Origin: a phage
Assembly (NCBI GenBank): GCA_037431425.1
Contig: GCA_037431425.1_4129.1
Reading direction: 5' to 3' (one strand)
DNA length: 64,000 nt
Shown here piece after piece: positions 34,053 through 53,595 of this stretch. The notes beneath the pieces were generated by a model that ran no database searches, was not told the origin of the DNA, and saw nothing but the letters and a program-made list of their open reading frames with translations. The position numbers were made by a program, and so were the translations under genes. The number at the start of each line of letters is the position of its first letter. Within the stretch, counting starts at the first letter, position 1.

Positions 34053-34694
34053 ATGACAAAGCAAGAAATATTCAAAACTTTAATTGACATATTACGTCCA
34101 TCTAAATTACGGTGTGCAATGGAGTTTGATATTCCTTATGCTGAACAGGTAATCTTTCCACAAGTGAAATCGGCAGGACTTACGTTACTTGGTATGGGAA
34201 TGTACTCTGTAGTAGTTGAACATAAAAACTATCCAGGTCGTGCATTTAAAGTAACCACGTCACGATGGGATGGTTTTCGTGCTTATGCAAAGTACTGCAT
34301 TGAAAACGCAGGAACTAAATTTCTTCCTGTTATATACAGTGCAAATGAGCAAGGAAACTTCGGCTGGTATGAGATGGATAAGTATTACCCTATAATTAAA
34401 CAAAAAAATAATTACGATGATTTTGTGAGTACTAAAATTGGTGATTTATATTCGTATGCACATGCTGGACAATATGCTTCATCAATATCTAATATGCGTG
34501 GTAGTCCAGAAGAAATTGCTATTGCAACAGTTGTTGCGAACATAATGAAAGAGTTTCATGGTCGTTTTGTACCAGACATTCATTCCAGAAATGTAATGAT
34601 GGACAAAGATGGTAACGTATATATCACAGATCCTATTTCATGTGATGTACGGAGAGAAATACCAATCACACAAGAAGACCCAGTTTTTTATTGA
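34053..34694 (+). CDS. protein-kinase-like (PKL fold) protein, 213 aa
   Basis: GMGMYSVV (Gly loop), RAFKV (AxK), PDIHSRNVMMDKDGNVYITDP (HxD/N catalytic loop plus metal-binding D); start moved off the cassette -10. Confidence 0.6.
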   Translation: MTKQEIFKTLIDILRPSKLRCAMEFDIPYAEQVIFPQVKSAGLTLLGMGMYSVVVEHKNYPGRAFKVTTSRWDGFRAYAKYCIENAGTKFLPVIYSANEQGNFGWYEMDKYYPIIKQKNNYDDFVSTKIGDLYSYAHAGQYASSISNMRGSPEEIAIATVVANIMKEFHGRFVPDIHSRNVMMDKDGNVYITDPISCDVRREIPITQEDPVFY

Positions 34695-34719
34695 CAGAAC
34701 TTTAATACTGTTATATTAT
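34691..34719 (+). promoter_or_regulatory. possible promoter TTGACA..TATATT
   Basis: -35 overlaps upstream stop; spacer 15-17 depending on -10 choice. Confidence 0.4.
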
Positions 34720-35040: not shown

Positions 35041-35379
35041 ATGGAACAATATTTTGAATTAATTAATAAAGTGTCATTCTATGTAGTGTCATTGACGTGG
35101 GTTTATTTCATGTTTTGCTACATTATTGCATTCTTCCGATATACTACTTTATATGAACGTATCTATTATGATGCACCAATTTCATTCTTGGTGTTCTGTG
35201 CATGTACGTGGGGAATATTAGAAGTACTGATATGTGGATATAGAACTGATGAATTAAATCTGGTATCGGTATTGACTGGGTTATCACTTGGTGTTATGAT
35301 ATCTTTCTTTCCAGTATGGTTGTTCTTTGAACTGATCCATCGCATTGATGTATGGCGTTCTAATATCCCTGAAAAATAA
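35041..35379 (+). CDS. small polytopic membrane protein family, 112 aa
   Basis: 3 TM; C-terminal RSNIPEK tail shared with paralogues. Confidence 0.75.
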   Translation: MEQYFELINKVSFYVVSLTWVYFMFCYIIAFFRYTTLYERIYYDAPISFLVFCACTWGILEVLICGYRTDELNLVSVLTGLSLGVMISFFPVWLFFELIHRIDVWRSNIPEK

Positions 35380-35388: not shown

Positions 35389-35730
35389 ATGATTTTCTAT
35401 ACTAATGCGTTTGCTTATGCTATTGCATCAATCTACATTGTGTACTTCTTATTTGGTGGAGTACTGTACTTCTTTAAGTACAAAACATTGTTTAACCGAA
35501 TGTATCCAAATCACCCAATTGTAGTAGTACTTTTGATAATTTCTGTTGCTCATATCATTGTAGAAACAATAATGGGTATCAGTGCAGTACATTACAGTCT
35601 AGGTACTATTGTAATTATTACTATGATCATAGCATACATTTTAGTAATGGGTTCTGGTTTATTTGGGAATGTAGCAATGAAAATGTATAATCGAATCAAA
35701 ACATTACGTGATAATCTACCGGAGCGTTGA
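35389..35730 (+). CDS. small polytopic membrane protein family, 113 aa
   Basis: ATG 35389 with AAGGA SD (track used TTG 35383); tail RDNLPER. Confidence 0.75.
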   Translation: MIFYTNAFAYAIASIYIVYFLFGGVLYFFKYKTLFNRMYPNHPIVVVLLIISVAHIIVETIMGISAVHYSLGTIVIITMIIAYILVMGSGLFGNVAMKMYNRIKTLRDNLPER

Positions 35731-35731: not shown

Positions 35732-36076
35732 TTGTATAATTTAAATTTAATATCATATATCATAACAACAATGTTTACTTTCTATGCCTTTGTTGGTATA
35801 ATCCTACTGTACTTTAAATTTTATAAAGTCTTTGACCGTTTATTTCCATCATTGGAACATGAATTCTTAGTGGTGATGTACATATGTTTAACGTGTATGT
35901 CTACATTTTTCACTGTATTTGATGGTATCATCGGTATTAAAGCTGAAGATCCAAATGGAAGTACACTTGTTGCCTTTATCCTGGTAGGATTCTTCGGCAC
36001 TTATATCACTTTCATTTCAACATGGTCTGTGGTTGATTATCTCATTAGATTACGAGATAAAATGCCAAATCGATAG
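35732..36076 (+). CDS. small polytopic membrane protein family, about 114 aa
   Basis: start uncertain (TTG 35732 after GGAG, or GTG 35708); tail RDKMPNR. Confidence 0.65.
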   Translation: MYNLNLISYIITTMFTFYAFVGIILLYFKFYKVFDRLFPSLEHEFLVVMYICLTCMSTFFTVFDGIIGIKAEDPNGSTLVAFILVGFFGTYITFISTWSVVDYLIRLRDKMPNR

Positions 36077-39987: not shown

Positions 39988-41205
39988 ATGGATAAAAATA
40001 TGATCTTCGAAACTGAAAAAACATTACTTGAAACTTACACTTTGGATAATCTAGTTAAACTTAACCTTGAACGACCAGATATCCAACGCAATTGGCAATG
40101 GAAAAATAATAACCAAAACAATCTTATTATTTCCATTCTAAAGAATTCTCCAATTGGTCAATTTTTAGTATGGAATGAAACTAGTTCAAATACGATGTAC
40201 ATCACTGATGGTCGTCATCGCTATACAGTAATTTCAAACTTCATGAACAATAAATTCCCAGTCACTGTTAGAACTGAAGATGGGACTAAGGATTATTATT
40301 ATGGTTCTGATGATCCAGTAGAAGAAGAAAGCATTTCACTGAAACTTGGTGGAAAGCGTAAAACATGGGATTTTTTATCTAAAGAAGAGCGTGATGCTTT
40401 TCGTGCAAAGGAAGTATCAGTAACATTCGTTCATACAGACGATGCTGAAAAGATTTCAGATATGTTTATTGCAATTAATACTGCATCATCTAATCTATGT
40501 AAAGTTGATTTGTTAGTATGTAAGCACCACACAAATACATATATGAAACGTATTGATAAGCTATTTTCAATTGAGTTTGGCAAAGATGAACCCATGGCAG
40601 CATTAGTGAGTGATTTTTACCGTGCAATCGGTCATTGTTGTGTTAATGGTAATCATGAGAAACACTTATCGAAGCTTAAAGCTAACCCTAAAGTACAGAA
40701 GCGTGAATTTTTTGAAATGTTCTTTATGGTCAAAGCGTTCGCGAAATTATGTGCTAGTGCACTAGATGGTAAGCTAAACTCATACCGTATGCCAAAGATG
40801 AACCAACAAATTGAAGAAGCAATTATTAGTACTGAATCTCTTAGTGAGAAACATGCTGATGCTGATTTTGTTCAGTTTGTTAATGCAGTTCGTGAGATGA
40901 ATTTGGTATCACCTGTAAAATCTGCACAAAAATTTCAATTTATCCATGAAGATATGAAGAATACCTTTAATAAGAGACTCTTTTGTATTTTGATGGGATT
41001 GTTTTATGCTTATGGTACAAGATTGCCATTACATTTTCGTGATGTATGGGGTGACATTTATAATGAAATGTCAGAAAAAAGTTCAGAACTACCTACTAAT
41101 GGAACCGATAGTCCTTCCGCAATTTTAGCTGGCATTGAAATGATTGAACCATACTTTAGTTCAGCATTTAATAATATTCCATTGAGTGCTTACGTGGGAA
41201 AGTGA
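39988..41205 (+). CDS. DUF262 / ParB-like nuclease superfamily protein (GmrS-like), 405 aa
   Basis: N-terminal DIQRNWQW...ITDGRHRYTVIS matches the DUF262 (F/Y)QRxYxW ... DGQQR signature. Confidence 0.65.
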   Translation: MDKNMIFETEKTLLETYTLDNLVKLNLERPDIQRNWQWKNNNQNNLIISILKNSPIGQFLVWNETSSNTMYITDGRHRYTVISNFMNNKFPVTVRTEDGTKDYYYGSDDPVEEESISLKLGGKRKTWDFLSKEERDAFRAKEVSVTFVHTDDAEKISDMFIAINTASSNLCKVDLLVCKHHTNTYMKRIDKLFSIEFGKDEPMAALVSDFYRAIGHCCVNGNHEKHLSKLKANPKVQKREFFEMFFMVKAFAKLCASALDGKLNSYRMPKMNQQIEEAIISTESLSEKHADADFVQFVNAVREMNLVSPVKSAQKFQFIHEDMKNTFNKRLFCILMGLFYAYGTRLPLHFRDVWGDIYNEMSEKSSELPTNGTDSPSAILAGIEMIEPYFSSAFNNIPLSAYVGK

Positions 41206-41414
41206 AAAAACGTGGTGTACTAAATACACCACAAAAACAATATCTTTTGAAAAGATATTCTTTGTGTTATCTTTGTGGACAGAAGATATCGGATTCAGAT
41301 ATACTACATTTTGACCATGTTCAATCATTAAAAGATGGTGGTAGTAATGAATTAAGTAATATACGACCAACGCACTCCATTTGTAATTTACGTAAAGGTG
41401 CTAAGAGTATGTAA
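41202..41414 (+). CDS. small HNH endonuclease (GmrD-like partner), 70 aa
   Basis: GTGA overlap with DUF262 stop; HFDHVQSLKDGGSNELSNIRPTHSICNLRKG is a classic H-N-H. Confidence 0.7.
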   Translation: MKKRGVLNTPQKQYLLKRYSLCYLCGQKISDSDILHFDHVQSLKDGGSNELSNIRPTHSICNLRKGAKSM

Positions 41415-41463
41415 AGCTAATACTCCCCAAAGATGGGGAGTATATATAATTAAAGGGATTTAT

Positions 41464-42300
41464 ATGAGTATTAAAAATAAATTAGATCAGTATTATACAA
41501 ATCCAGAGTATGCTAAAAAATGTTATACTAAATCATTAGAGTTTATTTCGTCTCGAATGGACATTAATTCATCTTATTATATGGAGCCTTGTGTTGGGAC
41601 TGGTTCGTTTTATCTACAGTTTCCTGAATCCCGTCGATTTGGGTGTGACATTGATCCGGTACATCTTGATGAAAATGTTATCCATTCCGATTTTTTACTT
41701 GAATTTGGTATCAATGCAAGAAGTAAAGGTGAACCAATACTTGTTATAAGTAATCCACCTTTTGGGAAAATTTCTTCTTTAGCCATTAAGTTTTTTAATA
41801 AATGTGCATCAATGCCTGAAGTGAAATATATTTGTTTTATTGTCCCTATGACATTTCGAAAAGCAGCAACACAAAATAAACTCAATGAGATGTTTCACCT
41901 GGTATTAGATGAAGATTCACCAAATGACGCTTTTATACTGCACGGAGAACCACATCATGTACCATGCGTATTTCAGATATGGGAACGTAGGGATACAGTT
42001 CGTGAGAAACATGAGATTAAGAACAAATCAGACTATTTCGACTATTGTACTAAGGAAGAGGCTGATGTTTTTATAAAACGTGTAGGAACCAAAGCAGGTG
42101 AGTATGCCGAGCCAGGGAAAGAACACAAAGATGCAAGTATGTACTACATTAAAACTAAGTATGTTGATGAAATCATTAAGGTTTTGAAAAGTAAAGATTA
42201 CCTTGATGAGATAAAACGTATACGTAAAACCACAGCAGGGGTATACTGTGTGTCCAAATCTGAAATCGTTCTTAATATTGAAAAACGTTTGAATCTTTGA
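41464..42300 (+). CDS. DNA methyltransferase, NPPF (N6-A or N4-C) gamma-type, 278 aa
   Basis: motif I EPCVGTGSF, then motif IV SNPPFGK; start moved to ATG 41464 after hairpin ACTCCCC..GGGGAGT and AAGGGA SD. Confidence 0.75.
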   Translation: MSIKNKLDQYYTNPEYAKKCYTKSLEFISSRMDINSSYYMEPCVGTGSFYLQFPESRRFGCDIDPVHLDENVIHSDFLLEFGINARSKGEPILVISNPPFGKISSLAIKFFNKCASMPEVKYICFIVPMTFRKAATQNKLNEMFHLVLDEDSPNDAFILHGEPHHVPCVFQIWERRDTVREKHEIKNKSDYFDYCTKEEADVFIKRVGTKAGEYAEPGKEHKDASMYYIKTKYVDEIIKVLKSKDYLDEIKRIRKTTAGVYCVSKSEIVLNIEKRLNL

Positions 42301-42368: not shown

Positions 42369-42872
42369 ATGACACGCATTAATTTAGTACACGTTAAAGA
42401 ACTTGCTGACCAACATTTGATGGCTGAATATCGTGAACTTCCACGGGTGTTCGGTGCTGTACAAAAACACGTTCAAGCACGTAAGCGTGTCCGTGATTTT
42501 AAAATTAACAGTACTTATCTGTTAGGTTCAGGCCATGTGACATTCTTCTACGACAAGTTACTGTACTTACAAAAGCGTCATGTTGAGATTGTTAACGAAT
42601 GTTTGCGTCGTGGTATGAAGATTCAAAACACGGAAGTAAACGACATCAGCGGCTTCCCTGATGAGTTTTGTAATGACTACGTACCATCGGAGTCAGAGAT
42701 TAAAATGTCTCGTGACCGTTTGATTGAGAAGCTCCAGATGAAGCCTAAGTGGTATAAGTTTACTGCTGTTGAAATTCCACAGTACGTTAAAGATATGCAG
42801 AACGTAAAATCTAGTACTGATATGTTCGAAGAAATTGAAGAGCAAATCAAAGATGAAATGAATAATTATTAA
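42369..42872 (+). CDS. denV: pyrimidine-dimer DNA glycosylase (T4 endonuclease V family), 167 aa
   Basis: [41 protein letters not shown] is near-identical in pattern to T4 EndoV; C-terminal extension of about 30 aa. Confidence 0.9.
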
Positions 42873-42939: not shown

Positions 42940-43713
42940 ATGAACCGTACAGAAAAAGCACTTCAAATCGAAAAAAACTTCAACTCCATGATGGCAGCAC
43001 TGGAATGTCTTCTGGATACGCAAACTAACTCCATCAATTCTTTGATTGTATCAGGAAAAGGTGGTGTTGGTAAAACTTACAACGTTGACCAGCGTTTACG
43101 GAAAGCGGATGATAACTTTGAAATTGACTACAAAAAAATCAGTGGTAAAGTAACTACTGTGGGTCTGTACGAAGCACTGTATCGTTCACGTCATGCTGCT
43201 TCTGTACTGTTGCTGGATGATGTTGATATCTTCTCTGATGAGACTAACATTGACTTACTCAAAGCTGTATTGGATACATCTGAAAAGCGTGTAGTATCAT
43301 ATGCAACATCTGCTAAGTACCTTGAACAGCAGGGTATTCCTAAGCAGTTTGAATTCCGTGGTAAGGTTATTTTCCTGACGAACAAAAACCTGTCACAGAT
43401 TGCTAAAGGTAAAAGTAGTTTAGCACCACACATCGATGCACTGATTACTCGTAGCATCTTTGTTGATCTGCAACTGTTTACAAATGAAGAAGTAATGATT
43501 CACATTGAAAATATTATGAACAAAACAAACATCCTTGAAAACAATGGTGTTAACAAAAATGGTTGCAAAGCAATTCTGAATTGGATGCTGAACAATGAAG
43601 ATCGTCTGCGTAGCCCATCACTGCGTATGCCAGTACTGATCGCTGGTTTGTATAATAAATTTCCATACGACTGGGAGTCTATGGCAGAGAATATGTTCCT
43701 TGAGAAAATTTAA
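42940..43713 (+). CDS. P-loop (AAA-like) ATPase, 257 aa
   Basis: Walker A SGKGGVGKT; Walker B VLLLDDVD. Confidence 0.7.
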   Translation: MNRTEKALQIEKNFNSMMAALECLLDTQTNSINSLIVSGKGGVGKTYNVDQRLRKADDNFEIDYKKISGKVTTVGLYEALYRSRHAASVLLLDDVDIFSDETNIDLLKAVLDTSEKRVVSYATSAKYLEQQGIPKQFEFRGKVIFLTNKNLSQIAKGKSSLAPHIDALITRSIFVDLQLFTNEEVMIHIENIMNKTNILENNGVNKNGCKAILNWMLNNEDRLRSPSLRMPVLIAGLYNKFPYDWESMAENMFLEKI

Positions 43714-43775
43714 TTATATGTGTTGACGATTCTACTATAGTGTAGTTCTATAATACTTCATACTGGAGATACGAT

Positions 43776-44117
43776 ATGCTTGAGTTTTTTAATTCAAATA
43801 CAATGCTTGGTATTACTTTAATTTACATGTTTGTATTTTTGTTTTATCATTCAATTGTAATTAGTCTGTGGTATTTTAAAAGGAAAGTTGTTTTTAAATT
43901 GTATTCGTATGATAATGTATTCTTAGTTGTATATAGTATTGTACAAGGTGGGTTTATTTTATTTGGTATTATGACTTATTTCATTTATCGATTGGAAATT
44001 GATAATACACCACACATTACACAATATGTTGTGTTTTCGGGACTAATCGTGTGGTTGTTGACATGTGTCGTGTACTTTATTATTAAAGCTCGTGACAAAA
44101 TTAAAGGGGAATTCTAA
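43776..44117 (+). CDS. small polytopic membrane protein family, 113 aa
   Basis: GGAGA SD; 3 TM; tail RDKIKGEF. Confidence 0.75.
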   Translation: MLEFFNSNTMLGITLIYMFVFLFYHSIVISLWYFKRKVVFKLYSYDNVFLVVYSIVQGGFILFGIMTYFIYRLEIDNTPHITQYVVFSGLIVWLLTCVVYFIIKARDKIKGEF

Positions 44118-44455
44118 TGTTAACATTTTTTCAGTCAGATACAATGATTAGTATTACGTTGATTTATCTGTTTGGATTTTTCTTTTATCATGCACTAGTT
44201 GTAGTACTATGGTATTTTAAAAAGAATATAGTTTTCAAACTGTATCCTAAAGGAAACGTTTCATTACTTCTTTTCACTATTATCCAAGGTATCTTTGCAA
44301 TTTTTGGTATTACTGCACATTTAATTTATTGTGCTAATCCACATTTGAACTCAATATCACAATACATTGTATTTTTTGGATTACTAATTTGGGTACTAAT
44401 ATACGTAACTAATCTCATCATTAATGGTAGAGCTAAAATTCACGGGGACTTTTAA
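44117..44455 (+). CDS. small polytopic membrane protein family, 112 aa
   Basis: TAATG coupling; close paralogue of 43776. Confidence 0.75.
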   Translation: MLTFFQSDTMISITLIYLFGFFFYHALVVVLWYFKKNIVFKLYPKGNVSLLLFTIIQGIFAIFGITAHLIYCANPHLNSISQYIVFFGLLIWVLIYVTNLIINGRAKIHGDF

Positions 44456-44802
44456 TGTTTGAATCTTATCTTGACTTTTTAAGGAATAGTCCAGTAGCAC
44501 ACTCACTTGCTGGGATTGTTCTATCAGGCTATATCACATTTTGGGTAGTTATGTTTCTAGGATGGTATTTTAAACGACAATTCTATAAGCGTAACGGTGA
44601 AGATTTTATGAATTCTGCTATTAATCAATCGTTGTTTGCATCAACATTGATAGCATCAATTGTAGCAACACTCACTGGTGCAGTTCTACCAGCATTCGCC
44701 GCAGTTTACGGCACACTTGGAGTGGTATGTTTATCTTTTATATTGATCATTAAACTTTGTTGTGTTATGATTGAACTTCGAAATAAGATACCGGAGGAAT
44801 GA
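44455..44802 (+). CDS. small polytopic membrane protein family, 115 aa
   Basis: TAATG coupling; tail RNKIPEE. Confidence 0.75.
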   Translation: MFESYLDFLRNSPVAHSLAGIVLSGYITFWVVMFLGWYFKRQFYKRNGEDFMNSAINQSLFASTLIASIVATLTGAVLPAFAAVYGTLGVVCLSFILIIKLCCVMIELRNKIPEE

Positions 44803-45137
44803 TGGAGTATTTTATTGATTTACTGCCGTGGTATATGAAAGTGAGTATTTTATACTATATTATTAGTACTGGATTCTACTTCCTGATGTGGTTTTTTAAA
44901 CGACCAATTTCAGTGTACATCGCTGATAACATGCTGCAATTAAAATTACAAGCATGGTTTTATATGGCGATGTTTATGCCTATTATTCACTACTCAATGA
45001 TTAGTCTAGGTTTACGTTCTAATGGTGAACCAATTGTATTAGTATTCTATTGGGCTTCAACTCTAGTATATGTCGGTTTGTTGTTATACCCAATCGTTCA
45101 TATATTACGTGCTAAAGTTCCTGATGCGAGGTACTAA
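44799..45137 (+). CDS. small polytopic membrane protein family, 112 aa
   Basis: ATGA coupling; tail RAKVPDARY. Confidence 0.75.
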   Translation: MMEYFIDLLPWYMKVSILYYIISTGFYFLMWFFKRPISVYIADNMLQLKLQAWFYMAMFMPIIHYSMISLGLRSNGEPIVLVFYWASTLVYVGLLLYPIVHILRAKVPDARY

Positions 45138-45451
45138 TGGATATAGTAACATTGATTTACACGTTGTATTCATTCTATTTTATTATGTGTTGGATTGGAT
45201 TTTTATTTGTACTGAAGACGTTTGATTATGTTGAAAGACAGATAAAAGAATTTTGTATTCCTTTTATTGGGTCAACCATAATTAGTATTACTTGTTTGTA
45301 TTATTTGGTATGTGATCCACCAGATAACACTGCAATGATTGACTTTATGTTAGCACCAACTACTGTTATTTTTTTATGTAGTCTGCTGCCACCTATTAGT
45401 CGTGGGTTAGCAGAATTTAGACGCAAACAAAAGCTTAAACGAGGGATGTAA
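45137..45451 (+). CDS. small polytopic membrane protein family, 104 aa
   Basis: TAATG coupling. Confidence 0.7.
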   Translation: MDIVTLIYTLYSFYFIMCWIGFLFVLKTFDYVERQIKEFCIPFIGSTIISITCLYYLVCDPPDNTAMIDFMLAPTTVIFLCSLLPPISRGLAEFRRKQKLKRGM

Positions 45452-45819
45452 TGGAAATCACACTTATTATATTAACTTCTATGTTGTTTATTAGTACAGT
45501 TGTTATTATTGGCAAGTTCTTCTGTGTATCCTTCTTGGAAACCGTATATGATGAAATTGCAGATGATTATGAATTAGAAGCAGGATTTTTTATTACGTAT
45601 TGGGTTAGTTTATTACTGCTTATCACAGTATGGGTTTTGCATATATTCCAATGGGGTATGGTTGGTGATGATCCATTACTGGGAATTATTTGTGCGACAT
45701 TTGGGCTACTGACTGGTGCTGCCCACAATCTGATAGTAATTGTGCAAACTATAAAATGCGTATTAGTTCCACATTTTCAGAGAATGCACCAAAACATTAA
45801 ACGCCGCAAACGAGGTTAA
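45451..45819 (+). CDS. small polytopic membrane protein family, 122 aa
   Basis: TAATG coupling. Confidence 0.7.
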   Translation: MEITLIILTSMLFISTVVIIGKFFCVSFLETVYDEIADDYELEAGFFITYWVSLLLLITVWVLHIFQWGMVGDDPLLGIICATFGLLTGAAHNLIVIVQTIKCVLVPHFQRMHQNIKRRKRG

Positions 45820-45820
45820 T

Positions 45821-46183
45821 ATGAACGGGATAGAGTTATCTGTGTTTGGTCAATCGCTAATAATTATTAATACTTTCTTTTTCTCACTTAATGCATTTAT
45901 GTGTATTGGGAAGTATTTTCATAAACGACCATTATCAAATATATATGATGTAATTCAAACGAGATATAGTCCAGCATATACTATAGTTATTAGCAGTTTC
46001 AATTTTGGTTTTGTTTTATTAGTAATTGGAATGTTAACATCAACGTTGAATATCATCACATTCGGTCTTATGATATGTTCATTGGCATTAACATTAGTTA
46101 TATGTTGTTTAGTACTACACCTTATGGTTCTATTATATTTAAAGATATATGCAATTCACCACCGCTTAGGTACGAGGAAATGA
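45821..46183 (+). CDS. small polytopic membrane protein family, 120 aa
   Basis: adjacent start; 3 TM; basic tail. Confidence 0.7.
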   Translation: MNGIELSVFGQSLIIINTFFFSLNAFMCIGKYFHKRPLSNIYDVIQTRYSPAYTIVISSFNFGFVLLVIGMLTSTLNIITFGLMICSLALTLVICCLVLHLMVLLYLKIYAIHHRLGTRK

Positions 46184-46184
46184 T

Positions 46185-46556
46185 ATGAGTTATCGTGAAG
46201 TATTTTCTATAATTTCAATTATTATGTTCAGTGCTGGGACATTGATTTGGTTATTATACTTTTTCTGTATTAATCCAGTGTATAATATGTTATGCAATAT
46301 TAAATCAAGTACTGGCTATATGACCTTTATGATCTTTATGGGATATTATTGTCTAAGCATTTTAGGTGTTTTTTTGGTTGTTATATTTGATCTAGGACCA
46401 AACAGGGACGGTCTGCAAATGTATGAGTTAATAACTATGTTTGGGTGTATGATACCAACTGCACTAATGTTTGTAGCTATTGGTGCTGGATGTATAAAGT
46501 TATACAATTATTTAAAATCCATTCATCATTACATTCATAATAAACGTATGTCCTAA
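46185..46556 (+). CDS. small polytopic membrane protein family, 123 aa
   Basis: adjacent start; 3 TM; basic tail. Confidence 0.7.
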   Translation: MSYREVFSIISIIMFSAGTLIWLLYFFCINPVYNMLCNIKSSTGYMTFMIFMGYYCLSILGVFLVVIFDLGPNRDGLQMYELITMFGCMIPTALMFVAIGAGCIKLYNYLKSIHHYIHNKRMS

Positions 46557-46560: not shown

Positions 46561-46590
46561 AATCCAGTACTATTAAGTACTGGATTATTT
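46561..46590 (+). terminator. terminator hairpin built from two AGTACT copies
   Basis: AATCCAGTACT-ATTA-AGTACTGGATT then ATTT. Confidence 0.6.
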
Positions 46591-47290: not shown

Positions 47291-48436
47291 TTATTTTTTC
47301 CAAGGAAGTAACGAAGTTGGTATTTTGATAGGTATATTTGATGAAACAACATCAGGAAAATTTGCATCCCCACAAACATACAAATTATCGTCTTCGTCTA
47401 TCAATAATATATAGTTGTAACTTCTACAAAACCCATTTAAACCTCTTCCCTCTAATGCAGATAAATTTATTTCAGTGAATTGTGTTATATATGTTTCATT
47501 TGAACCAACACCACATTGACCATTAGCATTTATACCACAAGTAAGCAATTTATTATTGTTTTGAATTATACATGATGGTCCAGCAAGGTTTGTACCTAGT
47601 TCACCTACAACGTTGACCTCACCTTGTAATGATAAATTTGGAATCACTGTACTCATTGGGACACGAGATGTATTTCCAACACCTGCTTGTCCTGAACCAT
47701 TAGTGGATGCTACTTTAACAGTACCGTCATTAAGAAAAATATAAGATGTTTCGATTGTATTAACTGCTTGAGTAGCTGATGTTATTGACGTATCCTGTTT
47801 GAATTTGAGTACATTTGTTGTTGTCGAACCAGAGATATATGTAGCACCTGCGTACCAATATGTTCCATCCTGGAGTACTAAACCAGTACTTCTAATTGAA
47901 CACCCAGCACTTCGAACATTTTCTATATGACTATATGTAAAGGTTGATACAATTGAAGATTCACCATTACCAAATACCCCACCAGTACCTGCACCACAGA
48001 AAAACCATTTACCGTTTTTCAAAAATACACGCATACAAGCAGAAATAACCACACTATCAATATCACTTGCAGTTACACCAAAATCGGTAAAGAAATGAGT
48101 TATATCAATCCAATTGCCACCAGTATTTGATGGGAGATGTGGAATTACAACTCTAGTCCCTGTGTACCAGATTGTATCATCATCTTTAATAACAAGCGTA
48201 CCTTGAACACCCCCCCAATACCTGGTTACATTAGTATTAACAAGTGTCCACTCATTAGATGATTCCGTTGAGCCATTACCACCTTGACCATATGATGATG
48301 AACCGCACCAGTATAAATTGCCATTTTTATTTAAATAAAATTTTGCATCAGCCGAACATTGTAATCTGTATTTGAATACAGTTTTTGGTGCTGGTGCAAT
48401 ATTTGCATACTTAATCATTCTTCCAAAAGGTAACAT
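47291..48436 (-). CDS. RCC1-like repeat beta-propeller protein, 381 aa
   Basis: MLPFGRMIKYANIAP N-terminus; repeats such as LYWCGSSSYGQGGNG, LLTCGINANGQCGVG. Confidence 0.8.
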   Translation of the reverse strand: MLPFGRMIKYANIAPAPKTVFKYRLQCSADAKFYLNKNGNLYWCGSSSYGQGGNGSTESSNEWTLVNTNVTRYWGGVQGTLVIKDDDTIWYTGTRVVIPHLPSNTGGNWIDITHFFTDFGVTASDIDSVVISACMRVFLKNGKWFFCGAGTGGVFGNGESSIVSTFTYSHIENVRSAGCSIRSTGLVLQDGTYWYAGATYISGSTTTNVLKFKQDTSITSATQAVNTIETSYIFLNDGTVKVASTNGSGQAGVGNTSRVPMSTVIPNLSLQGEVNVVGELGTNLAGPSCIIQNNNKLLTCGINANGQCGVGSNETYITQFTEINLSALEGRGLNGFCRSYNYILLIDEDDNLYVCGDANFPDVVSSNIPIKIPTSLLPWKK

Positions 48437-48478
48437 AATTTCTCTCCCTCATTCATTATACTGTATTTAACCCAATTA
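48437..48478 (-). promoter_or_regulatory. conserved leader/promoter box of RCC1-like genes
   Basis: minus strand reads ..AAATACAGTATAATGAATGAGGGAGAGAAATTATG. Confidence 0.5.
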
Positions 48479-48480
48479 AG

Positions 48481-48503
48481 AAAAGCCAGTATCAAGTACT
48501 GGT
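48481..48503 (-). terminator. rho-independent terminator
   Basis: minus strand ACCAGTACTTGATACTGGC plus TTTT. Confidence 0.7.
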
Positions 48504-48509
48504 ATTTTA

Positions 48510-49859
48510 TTATTGTAATGGAATTTCAGTGAGTGTTTTATATGTACTTCCGTTATACACCCCTCTCCAATATACTTTACCATCAGTACTAACCACTAAT
48601 AATCCATATGTTGTAAACCCAAGAGTACCACCAACATACATAGCATCTTTGATTCTAATACCAATGTCTTCATATGTAAATGACGCGACTGCACCCGCTT
48701 GCCATGAAGGACTAGCGTAGTAATCACTATAAACACCATGTGCTTTATATATTGATGTTGTTCCTGGTTCAAAAATGACAGTTCCACAGTAGTTCATTCG
48801 TATTTTAGTACTGGATGAAGTTGGTACATTTATACCTACATCATCTTTTATCCCTGTGGTTAGGACGTTAAAACCACCCGCCACACGGTTGACGTCATTC
48901 GCACCGATTAAATACATACCAACGTTGTAGCCCATATAAAACACACTAGAGCTTCCATTCCAGAAAGAAAAACCACCACCATTCCCACAGCGATATAGTT
49001 GTGAATTTGAGCAGTACATCATACCTTCGTTTGTCGCATCAAATTCATCTGCTTTTCCTATTGTAGCTACAGTAGTCCAAGTTTTAATTACTTGGTTTGT
49101 ACTAGCTGGTGTTTGTATACCATATCGTATATTATACCCTTTACCGACTATTGTACCATCTTCTAATTTGGCATAAAGTACAGGTCTATTACCAACAAAA
49201 TACATATTATTGTGTGACATGTCTATTGTGCATCTTAATGAAACTACTTTTTGTTTCAATTGATTATCTTTAGTAAAAGAAGTAAAGTAGTAATCTGATG
49301 TTGAGTTGTTTATTAAACCTTGTATTGACAACCCCATATACCAGATTTCTCCCTTACTATTCAAAGCTGCCAAAATACAACTATATTTTGAAGTGTATGT
49401 TGGGTTTACTGAAGTTGCTGGTCCTTTGTCATATCCACCACAGAATACCATCTCCACAACTTCACCTACGTTAGCAAAATAAGAAGATACATTGATAAAA
49501 CCATTTGTTATAAAAGGTGCTGTATTTATACTTGAATGTGTGAATATCCCATTTGCATATACACCACAAAAATGATATGAACCATCATTATCTTGGACTA
49601 TTATTCCATTTGATAGTAACCAAAAATTGTTTACATTTTTTCTTACTAATTCGATTCCTGCCCCATTAGTTGGCGTTATACCAAAAGAAACATATTTTGT
49701 TTGACCAATTCCATATAAATTTCCATTTGATGCTAATATTGCACCAAACCAATTACCACCACCATTCTTGTTATGACCCATACCTATAGAATCAAATTTC
49801 TTAACAGTAGGAGCTTGTACTTTGTTCCCATAATTCACCATTCTTCCAAAAGGTAACAT
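48510..49859 (-). CDS. divergent RCC1-like repeat protein, 449 aa
   Basis: same MLPFGRMVNYGN N-terminus; degenerate G-rich blade repeats. Confidence 0.75.
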   Translation of the reverse strand: MLPFGRMVNYGNKVQAPTVKKFDSIGMGHNKNGGGNWFGAILASNGNLYGIGQTKYVSFGITPTNGAGIELVRKNVNNFWLLSNGIIVQDNDGSYHFCGVYANGIFTHSSINTAPFITNGFINVSSYFANVGEVVEMVFCGGYDKGPATSVNPTYTSKYSCILAALNSKGEIWYMGLSIQGLINNSTSDYYFTSFTKDNQLKQKVVSLRCTIDMSHNNMYFVGNRPVLYAKLEDGTIVGKGYNIRYGIQTPASTNQVIKTWTTVATIGKADEFDATNEGMMYCSNSQLYRCGNGGGFSFWNGSSSVFYMGYNVGMYLIGANDVNRVAGGFNVLTTGIKDDVGINVPTSSSTKIRMNYCGTVIFEPGTTSIYKAHGVYSDYYASPSWQAGAVASFTYEDIGIRIKDAMYVGGTLGFTTYGLLVVSTDGKVYWRGVYNGSTYKTLTEIPLQ

Positions 49860-49900
49860 ATTTCCCTCCTTTATTCATTATACTATATTTAATACTAAAA
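49860..49900 (-). promoter_or_regulatory. conserved leader/promoter box
   Basis: minus strand GTATTAAATATAGTATAATGAATAAAGGAGGGAAATATG; TATAAT at 49877-49882; no -35. Confidence 0.55.
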
Positions 49901-49925
49901 GAAAAAGCCAGTACAGAGTACTGGC
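49901..49925 (-). terminator. rho-independent terminator
   Basis: GCCAGTAC..AGTACTGGC plus T-run on minus strand. Confidence 0.75.
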
Positions 49926-49931
49926 ATTATT

Positions 49932-51083
49932 TTAAATTGGTGAATCTTCAACAAATATAGTACTAGCAGTACCACCTGATACTGGGTTAGTACCACTTGA
50001 ATATATTTTGTTTCCATCTGTCATATATGTTTTACCATAGCAACTTTGGATTTTAACATCTTTGAAATTCAAATCAGGAGTAATAGATTTAGTGTAAGTT
50101 AATACGTTAGTAGTTGAACCTGTACTTAATTGTCCATAGTATGAAGTTGCAGAGTTATTACCAGCAACGTATACGCCAGTATCAGTAATAACAAAGTTCG
50201 AGTAATATCCGTACCCATATCCTATATCTAATATATTTCCTTGTGGTTGATTTACCACTGCTGTTGTCAATATTTGGGTTGTAGCCCCAGTACCAGTCGC
50301 TGCCTGACCATATGTTTGGTCACCACCTGTGTACACTGAAACAACTGACGTGCTTTTGTTTCTTGCAATACCTTGCACCATTCCATTAATTGTACTTATA
50401 AATGCAATAGTGTTAACAGTTGCTGGTAATCTGGATGACAATGTGAAGAATTTATAAGAAGTAGGACCGTCAGTGTTCCCATAAACTTCACCTGTGTAAT
50501 ATAATCTACCACTTTCAGCAATAAATGAACACATGTTTATACCTGCAATAATCCTTTTCGGTATCGCACCAGTTGGTATAATTGATTGTACTAAAGTAGA
50601 AAAACTACTAGTATAAGAATAATTACCAAGCTGTCCTCTTGTGTTATAACCACCACACCAAATGGTCCCATTACTCATAAGTATTGAAATGAAGTTATTT
50701 CCTAGTGATATTTCTGTAATTGTTCCTTGTGATTTGACTTGGTTAATAACGGTTTGCATAGAAGTCCATGCATTAACAGATGACGTACCCATACACACAT
50801 TGTATTGTTGTCCTGTGTATTGATATGTCCCATCTGACTTGTGAATCATTGTAGCATACTGACCACACCATACATCAGTGACATCAGATGCAGTTACAGT
50901 CCATGATGATCTGGCTATATTGTCACCTAAACCCAACTGACCATTTGAATTGTTACCACGGGTGTATAACTTACCATTACTACCCAATACCATAACCCAG
51001 TTATACCCTGCAACTAATTTTTTAATGGCAGCAGGGGATGGTGCAACATTCCCATAATCAAACATTCTAACAAAAGGTAACAT
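49932..51083 (-). CDS. RCC1-like repeat beta-propeller protein, 383 aa
   Basis: LYTRGNNSNGQLGLGDN and IWCGGYNTRGQLGN are canonical RCC1 blade motifs. Confidence 0.85.
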   Translation of the reverse strand: MLPFVRMFDYGNVAPSPAAIKKLVAGYNWVMVLGSNGKLYTRGNNSNGQLGLGDNIARSSWTVTASDVTDVWCGQYATMIHKSDGTYQYTGQQYNVCMGTSSVNAWTSMQTVINQVKSQGTITEISLGNNFISILMSNGTIWCGGYNTRGQLGNYSYTSSFSTLVQSIIPTGAIPKRIIAGINMCSFIAESGRLYYTGEVYGNTDGPTSYKFFTLSSRLPATVNTIAFISTINGMVQGIARNKSTSVVSVYTGGDQTYGQAATGTGATTQILTTAVVNQPQGNILDIGYGYGYYSNFVITDTGVYVAGNNSATSYYGQLSTGSTTNVLTYTKSITPDLNFKDVKIQSCYGKTYMTDGNKIYSSGTNPVSGGTASTIFVEDSPI

Positions 51084-51124
51084 ATTTCCCTCCTTTATTC
51101 ATTATACTATATTTAATACTAAAA
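51084..51124 (-). promoter_or_regulatory. conserved leader/promoter box
   Basis: identical to the 49860 copy. Confidence 0.55.
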
Positions 51125-51125
51125 G

Positions 51126-51150
51126 AAAAAGCCAGTACTTGAGTACTGGC
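51126..51150 (-). terminator. rho-independent terminator
   Basis: GCCAGTACTTGAGTACTGGC (two AGTACT) with flanking A and T runs. Confidence 0.75.
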
Positions 51151-51157
51151 TTTCTTA

Positions 51158-52348
51158 TTACAATTTTCTAGGTGTATCCAGAACATATCTATTTGTTTTA
51201 GGGCCACCATCATCATAAGTTCCGGTTGAATATATATTTTTCATATCAGCAGTTAGGAAAGTACGCAACGAACCGCGATATATTTTTATTTTATCATACA
51301 TAGAATATGTTATTTCTGACGGCAATGGACATGCAGTAAATTTACCAATGGTAGCATCATAACCAACACCCAATGTACCAGCATAACTACTCGCATTTAA
51401 ACCAGTTGCATATACACCTGCACTCGTAACTAGTATACTAGATTGTGCTGGGTATCCAGTATGGATTGAATAATAAGTACCAGGTGGCAATGTGGCACTA
51501 TTATTTCCTAAAACTCCATTAACATTGCTAGATGTAGTTTTATTTCCCCATGCTCCATTATTAGCTAATCCACCAACTAGAAACTGACGTGCTCCTGTAC
51601 TTGGATTCTCTACTAAAGCACTGACAGCACCAAATGAACAAACAGTATATTGTAATGTTTTTGTATATGTGGTACTTGGCTGATATAAAGTATATTCATT
51701 AAATGGTGTCCATGTGGTACTAGTACTTATGCCAGATGTAATACCACCAATATATAAATTATTTTGTTTATCAAACAACATTACACAGTTATATGTTGAC
51801 ATTATTTGTGCAATATCAACATCTGGTGTTACAGCTTTAACAAATGAGCCATCGGTTATTTGTTGAGTTTTTCCAGTACCATCTGCGAATTGTCTAGCAC
51901 TATTCCACCCTGTACTCCATATTGTATTATTATCCATTAAGAAAGTAAACCACGTAGTACCTGCATACATTTGTTTAATTGAAGTACTTGAACTTTGTTT
52001 GTACAAATTTTCAATATATTGGTTATAACTTAAAAACGTAGTAGTACTAGTTTCTAAACCAATATGACTACCATATCCACAATAAAAATAATTTAAGTCA
52101 TTATCTTGAACTAACAAAGTTCCTTGTGTCATCCAGCAATCTTTGATATTTTCTCTAATTAATGTCCACGACCTTACTGCATTATTATTTCCTCTACCAA
52201 ACTTCCCCCAACTATTACTGCCTCGTGCGTATAGTTGACCGTCGGTATAAAGTACAACAACCTCAGTATCAGTTGGTATTATTTTCTTAATTTGAAGTGG
52301 GACGGGTACAATATTCCCGTACTTAACTATTCTTCCAAAAGGTAACAT
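51158..52348 (-). CDS. RCC1-like repeat beta-propeller protein, 396 aa
   Basis: MLPFGRIVKYGNIVP; LYARGSNSWGKFGRGNN. Confidence 0.8.
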   Translation of the reverse strand: MLPFGRIVKYGNIVPVPLQIKKIIPTDTEVVVLYTDGQLYARGSNSWGKFGRGNNNAVRSWTLIRENIKDCWMTQGTLLVQDNDLNYFYCGYGSHIGLETSTTTFLSYNQYIENLYKQSSSTSIKQMYAGTTWFTFLMDNNTIWSTGWNSARQFADGTGKTQQITDGSFVKAVTPDVDIAQIMSTYNCVMLFDKQNNLYIGGITSGISTSTTWTPFNEYTLYQPSTTYTKTLQYTVCSFGAVSALVENPSTGARQFLVGGLANNGAWGNKTTSSNVNGVLGNNSATLPPGTYYSIHTGYPAQSSILVTSAGVYATGLNASSYAGTLGVGYDATIGKFTACPLPSEITYSMYDKIKIYRGSLRTFLTADMKNIYSTGTYDDGGPKTNRYVLDTPRKL

Positions 52349-52386
52349 ATCCCCTCCTTATTCATTATACTATATTTAATCAAAAA
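52349..52386 (-). promoter_or_regulatory. conserved leader/promoter box
   Basis: minus strand ..AAATATAGTATAATGAATAAGGAGGGGATATG. Confidence 0.55.
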
Positions 52387-52387
52387 T

Positions 52388-52410
52388 AAAAGCCAGTATC
52401 AAGTACTGGC
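52388..52410 (-). terminator. rho-independent terminator
   Basis: GCCAGTATCAAGTACTGGC. Confidence 0.7.
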
Positions 52411-52424
52411 ATAGTTTTATAATA

Positions 52425-53531
52425 TTATTTCGGCATCGTAATTGCAGACCATGAATTTGTAGTAATTGGACCTGGTATGTACACTAAAGAACCACATGCA
52501 TAAATTTGTCTATTCCCATCATACACAACACTAAAGTTAGTACAAGTAAACAATGACGAATTTAATGGATTGTAAGTATCTAATGTTAGTGTATTCACCC
52601 ACTTATTTGAACCTAGACCACCTGACCTACCAAATGCACCAGTACTGTATATCTTACCTTCAGTTGTTGCATATATATTAACATATGAAGTTGAACTGGA
52701 TTTAGCTATTTTATGTATCTTACTATCAATAGCACTGGAGTTAAATGTAAAAGGATATATTTCTACGTTAGTTGATGAACCATTACCGAGTTGACCAGAA
52801 TACTGCAAGCCAGCGACGTATGTACCACCACCTGAATATGCTATAGTACTAGTACTGTTACCTCCCATTATTTTAACACTAGTTAAACGACTTACTAAAG
52901 TAGTGTACTGACCTTTACTAACACCTAGTGAACCATAACTACTAGTACCACATCCAATAAGGTTACCGTTGGATGTTAAGATTAATGTGTTGTTTTGTGT
53001 ACCATATATATCAGCAACTTCATTTGTACCAGTATTCAGTACTAACACAAAAGCACTCTGTGAATTAGGATATCCACCACCGAGTGAATAGTTACTGTTC
53101 ATGCCTCTTCCATAAACCTTTGTACCACTAGCATCTACGTAGTGCATCGTATCTGAACCAATTGATATCATTTTAATATTAGATATGTGTGGAAATGAAG
53201 AAGTAACATCTAAACCACCCAAGGGGATTGCAGTATTACCCGTACCTAACTGAGAAGTAACTCCGTGCATTCTGAACTCTTCTCCTTTGAGATACAGAAG
53301 ATTGTACCCACCAGCCCATGCATCAGAAACACCCTCTGCAACTAATATCCAATTATTTTTTTCCGCTGTACCAACGGCATTCAACTGCCAATATGAATTA
53401 TCTCCACATCCATATAATGTACCATCACTATATAGTACGTACAAATTATTGGTTCCACAAAATACTTTCTTGATCGTTATACCTTCTGGAGCTATATTTC
53501 CATAGGTCATTATTCTTGCAAAAGGTAACAT
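52425..53531 (-). CDS. RCC1-like repeat beta-propeller protein, 368 aa
   Basis: MLPFARIMTYGNIAP; LYGCGDNSYWQLN, LIGCGTSSYGSLGV. Confidence 0.8.
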   Translation of the reverse strand: MLPFARIMTYGNIAPEGITIKKVFCGTNNLYVLYSDGTLYGCGDNSYWQLNAVGTAEKNNWILVAEGVSDAWAGGYNLLYLKGEEFRMHGVTSQLGTGNTAIPLGGLDVTSSFPHISNIKMISIGSDTMHYVDASGTKVYGRGMNSNYSLGGGYPNSQSAFVLVLNTGTNEVADIYGTQNNTLILTSNGNLIGCGTSSYGSLGVSKGQYTTLVSRLTSVKIMGGNSTSTIAYSGGGTYVAGLQYSGQLGNGSSTNVEIYPFTFNSSAIDSKIHKIAKSSSTSYVNIYATTEGKIYSTGAFGRSGGLGSNKWVNTLTLDTYNPLNSSLFTCTNFSVVYDGNRQIYACGSLVYIPGPITTNSWSAITMPK

Positions 53532-53570
53532 ATCCCCTCCTTATTCATTATACTATATTTAATACAAATA
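53532..53570 (-). promoter_or_regulatory. conserved leader/promoter box
   Basis: same box as other copies. Confidence 0.55.
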
Positions 53571-53572
53571 AG

Positions 53573-53595
53573 AAAAGCCAGTATCAAGTACTGGC
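53573..53595 (-). terminator. rho-independent terminator
   Basis: GCCAGTATCAAGTACTGGC. Confidence 0.7.

What the first reader, a model, noticed from the sequence alone, without database searches (positions are those of the whole stretch)
43776..46556. Eight translationally coupled paralogous 3-TM mini-membrane proteins
Eight consecutive genes of 104-123 aa are joined by TAATG or ATGA overlaps. Each has three hydrophobic helices and a short basic C-terminal tail (..RDKIKGEF, ..RAKIHGDF, ..RNKIPEE, ..RAKVPDARY, ..RRKQKLKRGM, ..IKRRKRG, ..HHRLGTRK, ..HNKRMS). The first two are close duplicates and the others are strongly diverged. Three more members form a second cluster at 35041-36076.

Eleven copies of one small inner-membrane protein family in 64 kb is unusual. 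Candidate roles are superinfection exclusion or immunity, decoys against membrane-acting defence systems, or transporter or holin-like functions.
Basis: seen in the sequence. Interest (0 to 1): 0.6.

Follow-up and report, generated by a model that had tools for sequence, protein, structure and literature searches.

The report
Jumbo-phage array of small membrane proteins
A giant E. coli phage carries eleven related three-helix inner-membrane mini-proteins in two operons. The family is confined to its phage group, appears to be made early, and has no known function.

Summary
The window is an Asteriusvirus jumbo coliphage, 99% identical to phage ph0011 over the cluster. Positions 43776-46556 hold eight tightly packed genes of 104-123 aa. 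Each has three hydrophobic helices and a strong positive-inside bias, which implies an N-out, C-in topology.

Only M1/M2 (51% identical) and the three genes at 35041-36076 are related pairwise. Profile comparisons nonetheless join all eleven into one superfamily with two subfamilies:
- S1 comprises M1-M4 and N1-N3. Its motifs are W-F-F-K-R after TM1 and L-R-x-K-I-P-E at the C-terminus.
- S2 comprises M5-M8. Its motifs are G-K-F-F-C after TM1 and H-x-x-I-x-K-R at the C-terminus.

The array keeps the same subtype order, after an NrdC.10-like ATPase gene, in Klebsiella RaK2 phages, an Erwinia jumbo phage and metagenomic relatives. The genes are under purifying selection. The family has about 40 cluster representatives among 1.8 billion proteins and no Pfam, NCBIfam or PADLOC match.

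A conserved sigma-70-type promoter, the lack of a late-promoter motif and absence from the phAPEC6 virion proteome point to early, non-structural expression. Function remains inferred. My best guess is host-envelope takeover or exclusion. A hetero-oligomeric membrane complex is the main rival. A lysis holin is unlikely.

The parts
43723..43752 (+). Sigma-70-type promoter-like site heading the eight-gene operon. It reads TTGACG-17-TTCTAT here and TTGACA-17-TAC(T/A)AT in relatives. The spacer holds a CTAC-N6-GTAG inverted repeat.
   Evidence: The site is conserved in G17, BF17, JNE01 and Turkey5. It is the only match in the window to the combined pattern. No TATAAATA or ATAAATA late motif lies upstream.
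43776..44117 (+). M1, 113 aa, 3-TM. Subfamily S1, orthogroup A, extra copy found only in some lineages.
   Evidence: S1 HMM E = 6e-25. It is 51% identical to M2. The copy is absent from BF17, phAPEC6 and PBECO4-type genomes.
44117..44455 (+). M2, 112 aa, 3-TM. Subfamily S1, orthogroup A.
   Evidence: It cross-hits the S2 HMM at E = 4.5e-5.
44455..44802 (+). M3, 115 aa, 3-TM. Subfamily S1, orthogroup B.
   Evidence: The AlphaFold2 model has pLDDT 83.6 and shows TM1, a short cytoplasmic helix, TM2 and TM3.
44802..45137 (+). M4, 111 aa (112 aa if it starts at 44799), 3-TM. Subfamily S1, orthogroup C. This is the best-conserved S1 member, with the motif MWFFKRPIS.
   Evidence: B-C hhalign probability is 95%.
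45137..45451 (+). M5, 104 aa, 3-TM. Subfamily S2, orthogroup D.
   Evidence: S2 HMM E = 1e-28. D versus EFG hhalign probability is 95%.
45451..45819 (+). M6, 122 aa, 3-TM. Subfamily S2, orthogroup E, with the motif IGKFFCV.
   Evidence: The AlphaFold2 model has pLDDT 82.8 and the same helix layout as M3.
45821..46183 (+). M7, 120 aa, 3-TM. Subfamily S2, orthogroup F.
   Evidence: E-F hhalign probability is 96%.
46185..46556 (+). M8, 123 aa, 3-TM. Subfamily S2, orthogroup G. This is the member best conserved between genera, at 38% identity to RaK2 ORF315.
   Evidence: It cross-hits the S1 HMM at E = 3e-4.
46561..46586 (.). Conserved hairpin closing the operon (AATCCAGTACT-loop-AGTACTGGATT). It resembles a terminator mainly on the - strand.
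   Evidence: G17 annotates a terminator at the same place.
34691..34719 (+). Sigma-70-type promoter-like site (TTGACA-17-TATTAT, 11 of 12 matches) heading the operon that holds the second array.
   Evidence: It lies just after the T7 gp0.7-like kinase gene.
35041..35379 (+). N1, 112 aa, 3-TM. Subfamily S1, orthogroup N.
   Evidence: S1 HMM E = 4e-25.
35389..35730 (+). N2, 113 aa (or 115 aa from the TTG at 35383), 3-TM. Subfamily S1, orthogroup N.
35732..36076 (+). N3, 114 aa, TTG start, 3-TM. Subfamily S1, orthogroup N.
42940..43713 (+). NrdC.10-like P-loop ATPase. It is the conserved upstream neighbour of the array. This is context only; no functional link has been shown.
   Evidence: It is 41% identical to T4-type NrdC.10. 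It precedes the array in Asteriusvirus, RaK2, Hallingskeid and metagenomic contigs. It also occurs without any array in T4-like phages and in XaC1. A recombination breakpoint separates it from the array.

Best explanation
**Shown.** The eleven genes encode one phage-specific superfamily of inner-membrane proteins about 100-125 aa long. Each has three transmembrane helices, with the N-terminus in the periplasm and the C-terminus in the cytoplasm.
- The conserved residues all lie at the cytoplasmic face. One is an invariant Phe with a basic residue just after TM1. The other is an Arg (S1) or His (S2) about 7-10 residues from the C-terminus.
- The family arose by old tandem duplications into about seven subtypes. 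These are kept, in order, across Rak2-like jumbo phages of Enterobacterales. They evolve under purifying selection, with occasional recent duplications and allele swaps.

**Inferred.**
- Both arrays are transcribed by host RNA polymerase early in infection.
- The proteins insert into the host cytoplasmic membrane and are not packaged into virions.
- They act there as non-redundant host-envelope takeover or guard factors. The likely tasks are blocking DNA entry by superinfecting phages, or neutralising membrane-acting host responses.
- The variable TM2-loop-TM3 part would give each paralogue its own target. The conserved cytoplasmic-face motifs would serve a shared role such as insertion, packing or partner docking.
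For: **The genes are real.**
- dN/dS is 0.13-0.5 against four relatives.
- Orthologues occur in 36 Asteriusvirus and 9 Klebsiella-phage records.

**Topology.** Three hydrophobic segments and a strong positive-inside bias. AlphaFold2 models have pLDDT of 83-84.

**One superfamily.** hhalign gives 92-96% between subtypes and 92-93% between S1 and S2, with reversed controls at or below 16%. The HMMs cross-hit only within the arrays.

**Old, ordered array.**
- RaK2 ORF309-316.
- Erwinia phage Hallingskeid.
- Metagenomic contigs L010 and L020.

**Early and non-structural.**
- A sigma-70-type promoter is conserved before the main array, and another promoter-like site heads the second array.
- The T4-type late motif is depleted in the window and absent upstream of both arrays. 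It is present before the annotated structural genes at 32.2-32.7 kb.
- The neighbours are early-type genes: a gp0.7-like kinase, denV, a methylase and NrdC.10.
- The orthologues gp012c-017c are absent from the phAPEC6 virion proteome, while the adjacent RCC1-like proteins are present (PMC7247149).

**Accessory, host-linked character.**
- The array is absent at the syntenic site of Xanthomonas phage XaC1.
- Lineages carry their own duplications of subtypes A, B, D and E.
- Alleles are mosaic gene by gene.
- There are no cellular homologues among 1.84 billion representatives.
Against: - No experiment or expression data exist for any member (literature).
- Exclusion and anti-defence genes usually show patchy distribution and fast turnover. 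Here the same subtypes are retained in the same order across genera, which fits an obligate multi-subunit assembly better.
- The conserved positions are cytoplasmic. For a protein that blocks incoming DNA, periplasm-facing conservation would be more expected.
- Promoter assignment rests on consensus matches only.
- Absence from a virion proteome is weak evidence for small hydrophobic proteins.
Confidence: 0.35

Rival explanations
1. The subtypes are subunits of one hetero-oligomeric inner-membrane complex, such as a ring, channel or scaffold. It would be built from paralogous three-helix modules made in fixed ratios from one operon.
For: - Seven subtypes are conserved one-to-one and in the same order from Escherichia to Klebsiella and Erwinia phages.
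- The genes are tightly packed, and each Shine-Dalgarno site lies inside the upstream gene.
- All members share cytoplasmic-face motifs.
- TM2 and TM3 of some members are rich in small residues.
Against: - Copy number varies from 7 to about 12, through lineage-specific duplications.
- Alleles only 60-70% identical are swapped gene by gene between phages.
- A Salmonella phage lacks subtype B.
- A second array of S1-only genes sits 8 kb away in another operon.
- Gene overlaps are common throughout this genome.
- No multimer prediction could be run.
Confidence: 0.25
2. Each paralogue binds and modulates a different host inner-membrane protein, such as a transporter, sensor kinase, divisome or protease component. 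Together they would reprogramme host physiology during takeover, as cellular small membrane proteins do.
For: - The size, topology and apparent early context.
- The subtypes are conserved across phages of related hosts (Enterobacterales).
- The array is absent from the Xanthomonas relative.
- The genes are under purifying selection.
Against: - No similarity to any known regulator.
- No target can be named.
- The most conserved residues are shared by all paralogues rather than being subtype-specific.
Confidence: 0.2
3. They are holin or antiholin-like proteins that set lysis timing or permeabilise the membrane.
For: The architecture is that of class I holins such as lambda S105: about 105-125 aa, three TM helices, N-out and C-in, and a charged C-terminal tail. 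That description of class I holins is from my own knowledge.
Against: - No Pfam or PHROG holin family match.
- A sigma-70-type promoter and no late motif.
- The neighbours are early-type genes, not an endolysin or spanins.
- The endolysin homologue of 121Q is gp532, while the array is genes 224-232 (PMC5259590).
- Eleven copies is far more than any known lysis cassette holds.
Confidence: 0.08
4. They are non-functional or mis-called hydrophobic ORFs produced by AT-rich sequence.
For: The genome has 34% G+C, so Phe, Ile and Leu-rich ORFs arise easily.
Against: - dN/dS is well below 1.
- Orthologues at 30-40% identity keep their length, topology and motifs in other genera.
- Every start has a Shine-Dalgarno motif.
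- The HMM hits are specific to the arrays.
Confidence: 0.02

Closest known systems
Class I holins (lambda S105, P2 Y type)
   Same: They share the size of about 100-125 aa, three transmembrane helices, N-out/C-in topology and a short charged cytoplasmic C-tail.
   Different: - No sequence-family match.
- The genes sit in an early-type region behind a sigma-70-like promoter, not in a lysis cassette.
- There are eleven copies in ordered subtypes, not one or two.
- No dual-start motif.
- Hole formation has not been tested.
T4 Imm and Sp superinfection-exclusion proteins
   Same: These are small inner-membrane proteins of a large lytic myovirus. They are made early and act on the infected cell's envelope. 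This is the kind of role I think most likely here.
   Different: - No homology (no Pfam hit).
- A different number of membrane helices.
- They are single genes, not a conserved multi-subtype array.
- The exclusion phenotype has not been tested here.
'Putative membrane proteins' of Rak2-like jumbo phages (PHROGs 19454, 19046, 27396, 33258, 26405, 27618, 19285; RaK2 ORF309-316; 121Q genes 224-232)
   Same: These are the same genes or their orthologues. Databases already hold them as hypothetical or putative membrane proteins.
   Different: PHROGs split them into separate families of unknown function. I found no published description of them as one superfamily, of the two subfamilies, of the motifs, or of the conserved array order.
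FrdC/SdhC three-helix membrane anchors of fumarate reductase and succinate dehydrogenase
   Different: - Sequence identity is only 9-14%.
- The M6 model instead matches generic soluble three-helix bundles, so the similarity is generic.
- There is no respiratory context.

Membership tests
Class I holin | About 95-130 aa with three transmembrane helices, N-out/C-in, and a charged C-terminal tail | tested here: met
   Hydropathy and positive-inside counts. AlphaFold2 helix layout.
Class I holin | Sequence membership in a described holin family | tested here: not met
   No holin family in Pfam at E up to 1, nor in PHROGs. Nothing in NCBIfam.
Class I holin | Gene lies in a lysis cassette next to endolysin or spanin genes | tested here: not met
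   The neighbours are an NrdC.10-like ATPase, denV, a hypothetical protein and RCC1-like genes. The 121Q endolysin homologue is gp532, while the array is genes 224-232 (PMC5259590).
Class I holin | Late expression | tested here: inconclusive
   A conserved sigma-70-type promoter and no TATAAATA or ATAAATA motif upstream. No expression data exist.
Class I holin | Forms lethal membrane holes that release endolysin | not testable with these tools
   This needs induction and lysis assays.
T4 Imm/Sp-type superinfection exclusion | Sequence homology to Imm or Sp | tested here: not met
   No Pfam, PHROG or NCBIfam match to such families.
T4 Imm/Sp-type superinfection exclusion | Small inner-membrane protein made early by a lytic phage | tested here: inconclusive
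   Membrane topology is supported. Early timing is inferred only from promoter type and gene neighbourhood.
T4 Imm/Sp-type superinfection exclusion | Blocks DNA entry of superinfecting phage | not testable with these tools
   This needs phage-challenge assays.
Known anti-phage defence or candidate defence proteins (PADLOC) | Match to a PADLOC model | tested here: not met
   Only chance-level hits, with E of 0.016 or higher.
Rak2-like phage 3-TM mini-protein superfamily (defined here) | 100-130 aa with three TM helices, an invariant Phe plus basic residue after TM1, and Arg (S1) or His (S2) 7-10 residues from the C-terminus | tested here: met
   Alignments A5, A7 and A9. All eleven window genes hit the S1 or S2 HMM at E of 1e-18 or better.
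Rak2-like phage 3-TM mini-protein superfamily (defined here) | Tandem array with the S1 block before the S2 block, downstream of the NrdC.10-like ATPase gene | tested here: met
   Found in the window and in A4, JNE01, Turkey5, G17, BF17, RaK2, Hallingskeid, L010 and L020.
FrdC/SdhC membrane anchors | Specific fold and sequence relationship, in a respiratory-complex context | tested here: not met

The most novel reading that the evidence does not exclude
The seven conserved subtypes, plus lineage-specific extras, assemble into a single hetero-oligomeric inner-membrane machine built from paralogous three-helix subunits. This would be a phage-made membrane complex specific to Rak2-like jumbo phages, for example a pore or scaffold used during genome entry, replication-site anchoring or envelope control. 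No known counterpart exists.
Probability: 0.2. Interest if true: 0.7.

Novelty: new variant of a known kind. Interest (0 to 1): 0.45.

Why it matters
Jumbo phages of the Rak2 group are used in phage-therapy work on E. coli and Klebsiella, yet more than 80% of their genes have no assigned function. This analysis turns about ten 'hypothetical proteins' per genome into one defined family. The family has clear motifs, a predicted topology, a conserved operon structure and a short list of testable roles. If the proteins mediate exclusion or counter membrane-acting defences, they bear on cocktail design and host range. If they form a complex, it would be a new kind of phage-built membrane assembly.

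Tried and rejected
**Database scans that found nothing**
- Pfam, NCBIfam and PADLOC scans gave nothing above chance.
- PHROGs only returned the genes' own unannotated families, plus one weak hit to a 'membrane protein' family.

**Fold searches**
- M6 gave generic three-helix bundles.
- BFVD gave only non-significant hits to GAP32 and CBB 'putative membrane proteins'.
- I treat all of these as generic. The afdb50 library was unavailable.

**The 'Phi92_gp231/gp233' notes in the ph0011 record**
- They suggested a link to phage phi92.
- phi92 gp231 and gp233 are unrelated soluble proteins of 121 and 75 aa, and no phi92 ORF hits the family HMMs.
- The notes are spurious.

**A functional link to the upstream NrdC.10-like ATPase**
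- I considered this because the synteny is conserved.
- The ATPase occurs without any array in T4-like phages and in XaC1.
- The array has its own promoter, and a recombination breakpoint lies between the two.

**Other searches and checks**
- The IMG/VR scan recovered only 121Q and RaK2. A first attempt with the broad alignment failed for lack of a conserved stretch.
- Literature searches found no description of these genes.
- Other small membrane ORFs of the window are not members. These are 18271-19166, 27868-28110, 28165-28485, 28939-29316 and 37582-37833.
- I did not fetch the rest of the phage genome, so the family count outside the window and the first 50 kb of ph0011 is not established.
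Full report
**Source and observation**

Megablast places the region in the genus Asteriusvirus, the jumbo coliphages of about 350 kb in the 121Q/PBECO4 group. It is 99.1% identical to Escherichia phage ph0011 and 83-86% identical to 32 other records. In all of them the genes are annotated as hypothetical.

The ORF list shows eight consecutive + strand genes at exactly the stated coordinates. The sequence shows four TAATG junctions, one ATGA/TGATG junction and two junctions with a single spacer base. Each start is preceded by a GGAG/GAGG-type Shine-Dalgarno motif lying in the last codons of the upstream gene. The G-E-F, P-E-E and R-G endings of the C-terminal tails are therefore partly constrained by the next gene's ribosome-binding site.

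M4 probably starts at 44802, because the orthologues begin MEYF and the spacing to GGAGG is better. Overlapping starts and stops are common elsewhere in this genome. Translational coupling is plausible but not distinctive.

**Topology**

A Kyte-Doolittle scan finds three hydrophobic segments in each of the eleven proteins. The middle segment of M4 is weaker.

| Subfamily | Members scored | K+R per sequence, loop 1 + C-tail | K+R per sequence, N-terminus + loop 2 |
|---|---|---|---|
| S1 | 39 | 7.1 | 1.05 |
| S2 | 16 | 8.7 | 0.75 |

These counts give a consistent N-out, C-in orientation. AlphaFold2 models of M3 (pLDDT 83.6) and M6 (pLDDT 82.8) share one layout: TM1, a short cytoplasmic helix, TM2, then TM3 continuing into a cytoplasmic helix.

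**Are they paralogues?**

Pairwise, only M1/M2 and N1/N2/N3 are clearly related. M1/M2 are 51% identical with shuffle z = 34, and the N genes give z = 6.5-13.7. All other pairs have z of 5.4 or less. PHROGs likewise puts the proteins in separate families.

I built orthologue sets from diverged Asteriusvirus genomes (A4, JNE01, Turkey5, G17, BF17, SD-1_S14), RaK2 and a metagenomic contig. The gene-for-gene correspondence defines seven orthogroups A-G plus N. Profile-profile comparison then links them.

| Comparison | hhalign probability |
|---|---|
| B-C | 95% |
| E-F | 96% |
| F-G | 94% |
| E-G | 92% |
| D-EFG | 95% |
| S1 (A, B, C, N) vs S2 (D, E, F, G) | 92-93% (E = 4e-7 to 8e-7) |

The S1-S2 alignment spans 95-100 columns aligned end to end. 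Reversed-sequence controls never exceeded 16%.

The in-register alignment pairs the S1 motifs with the S2 motifs. LWFFKR after TM1 aligns with GKFFC, and LR-x-K-I-P at the C-terminus aligns with H-x-x-I-x-K.

As a specificity test, HMMs of S1 and S2 were run against three ORF sets:
- all 256 ORFs of the window;
- 1,001 ORFs of nineteen loci, which include 50 kb more of ph0011, a T4-like phage and Xanthomonas phage XaC1;
- the ORFs of two further relatives.

Only array genes were hit. Many hit both models, for example RaK2 ORF310 at 2.6e-7 and 6.7e-8. The other small membrane ORFs of the window are not members. 'Eleven copies of one family' is therefore supported at superfamily level, with two subfamilies.

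**Distribution and evolution**

An exhaustive HMMER search of 1.84 billion cluster representatives with the S1 profile found 39 proteins at E of 0.001 or better. All are 89-119 aa apart from one 56-aa fragment, and nearly all matched over their full length. Word-indexed searches of 5.8 billion proteins found 25 clusters for S1 and 16 for S2. None is cellular apart from likely phage contamination in E. coli assemblies.

Where genomic context is available, the array follows the gene for an NrdC.10-like ATPase and precedes an opposite-strand block of RCC1-like genes:
- all Asteriusvirus genomes examined;
- Klebsiella phage RaK2 (ORF309-316);
- Erwinia phage Hallingskeid;
- metagenomic contigs carrying 8 to about 12 members.

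In every case S1-type genes come first, then a D-like gene, then the other S2-type genes.

Xanthomonas phage XaC1 has the ATPase and the RCC1-like genes but no array between them. T4-like phages have NrdC.10 without any array.

dN/dS is 0.13-0.5 for the array genes against 0.04-0.16 for the ATPase. This indicates purifying but somewhat relaxed selection. Copy number changes through recent duplications: A in the 121Q lineage and this window, D in JNE01, B in RaK2 and E in L010.

Divergence is mosaic:
- The window's ATPase is 96% identical to JNE01's and 59% to G17's. The array shows the reverse pattern.
- Within the array, E is closer to BF17, while F and G are closer to G17.

**Expression class (inferred)**

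The intergenic region before M1 holds a sigma-70-type promoter that is conserved in relatives as TTGACA-17-TAC(T/A)AT. Its spacer carries an inverted repeat. A conserved hairpin follows M8. The second array lies in an operon headed by TTGACA-17-TATTAT, just after a T7 gp0.7-like kinase gene.

The T4-type late motif is strongly depleted in the window. TATAAATA occurs 3 times against 15.9 expected, and ATAAATA 10 times against 48.6. Its + strand copies at 32.2 and 32.7 kb sit before genes annotated as structural, and none precedes either array. In the related phage CBB, RpoD-like promoters mark the presumed early region of short genes, and ATAAATA marks late genes (PMC5259590).

In phAPEC6 the array orthologues gp012c-017c are absent from the 62-protein virion proteome, whereas the neighbouring RCC1-like proteins are present (PMC7247149). 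The Rak2-group endolysin homologue is 121Q gp532, far from genes 224-232.

**Interpretation**

What is shown is a real, old, phage-restricted family of N-out/C-in three-helix inner-membrane proteins. It has cytoplasmic-face signature residues and is organised as an ordered tandem array. The genes are probably early and non-structural. Function is not shown.

The accessory, host-clade-linked distribution, the duplications and the allele mosaicism favour a host-interaction role at the envelope. Candidates are exclusion of superinfecting phages or protection against membrane-acting responses. I rank this first, at about 0.35.

Retention of the same subtypes in the same order across genera is the strongest argument for the main rival, a hetero-oligomeric membrane complex (about 0.25). 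The two readings are not mutually exclusive. Modulation of host membrane proteins is a further option (about 0.2).

A lysis-holin role shares only the architecture and fails three of four testable criteria (about 0.08).

**Novelty**

The genes are already in databases as hypothetical or putative membrane proteins. I found no paper that treats them as a family. This analysis adds:
- the unification into one superfamily;
- the two subfamilies and their motifs;
- the conserved array order;
- the probable timing of expression.

It is an uncharacterised variant of a familiar kind of gene, the small phage-encoded inner-membrane protein. It is of moderate interest until a phenotype or a complex is demonstrated.

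Noticed in passing
window 47291-55969, - strand: Seven tandem paralogous genes of 368-449 aa carry RCC1-like beta-propeller repeats, immediately downstream of the array on the opposite strand. Their phAPEC6 orthologues (gp003-gp010) were detected in purified virions. The block follows the mini-membrane array in every relative examined.
   Followed up: partly
window 32221-32228 and 32686-32693 (+); whole window: The T4-type late-promoter word is strongly depleted. TATAAATA occurs 3 times against 15.9 expected, and ATAAATA 10 times against 48.6. Two + strand copies sit just before ORFs 32264-32647 and 32712-33983, which ph0011 annotates as structural proteins. This suggests the motif is a working late promoter kept out of other sequence.
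   Followed up: partly
window 42940-43775 versus 43776-46556: There is a recombination mosaic. The NrdC.10-like ATPase is 96% identical (protein) to that of phage JNE01 but 59% to G17 and BF17. The array genes are 73-90% identical to G17 and 31-50% to JNE01. Further breakpoints lie inside the array: E is closer to BF17, while F and G are closer to G17.
   Followed up: partly
window 43723-43752; L006 about 3020-3060: In G17, BF17, JNE01 and Turkey5 the promoter spacer holds a perfect inverted repeat, AGTACTAC-N6-GTAGTACT, between the -35 and -10 boxes. In the window it is degenerate (CTAC-N6-GTAG). The hairpin after M8 also has an AGTACT core. This could be an operator or an RNA structure.
   Followed up: no
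window 34020-34694: A T7 gp0.7-like protein kinase gene, a classic early host-takeover function, lies directly upstream of the operon holding the second array. Metagenomic relative L020 carries two such kinase genes near its arrays.
   Followed up: no
window 39988-41205, 41398-42300, 42369-42872: Upstream of the ATPase lie three genes. The first encodes a protein with a GmrSD N-terminal (DUF262-type) domain and a weak DndB match. The second is a gene that ph0011 annotates as a putative N6-adenine methyltransferase. The third is a denV-type pyrimidine-dimer glycosylase.
   Followed up: no
window 18271-19166, 27868-28110, 28165-28485, 28939-29316, 37582-37833: Several other small predicted multi-pass membrane ORFs lie in the window. 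None matches the S1 or S2 family models, so the phage carries further unrelated small membrane proteins.
   Followed up: partly
L001 (ph0011 record OP557969), notes on several CDS: The notes 'Phi92_gp227/231/233/234' in the ph0011 annotation are misleading. phi92 gp231 and gp233 are unrelated soluble proteins of 121 and 75 aa.
   Followed up: yes
L017 6339-6654 (phage 121Q): The 121Q orthologue of M5 (subtype D) is split into two ORFs by a one-base insertion in a run of T. This is either a homopolymer sequencing error or a genuine pseudogene.
   Followed up: partly
L019 24757-31258 (ph0011, outside the window): About thirty consecutive genes of roughly 65-85 aa have four-base start/stop overlaps. 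This may be another large tandem family in the early region.
   Followed up: no
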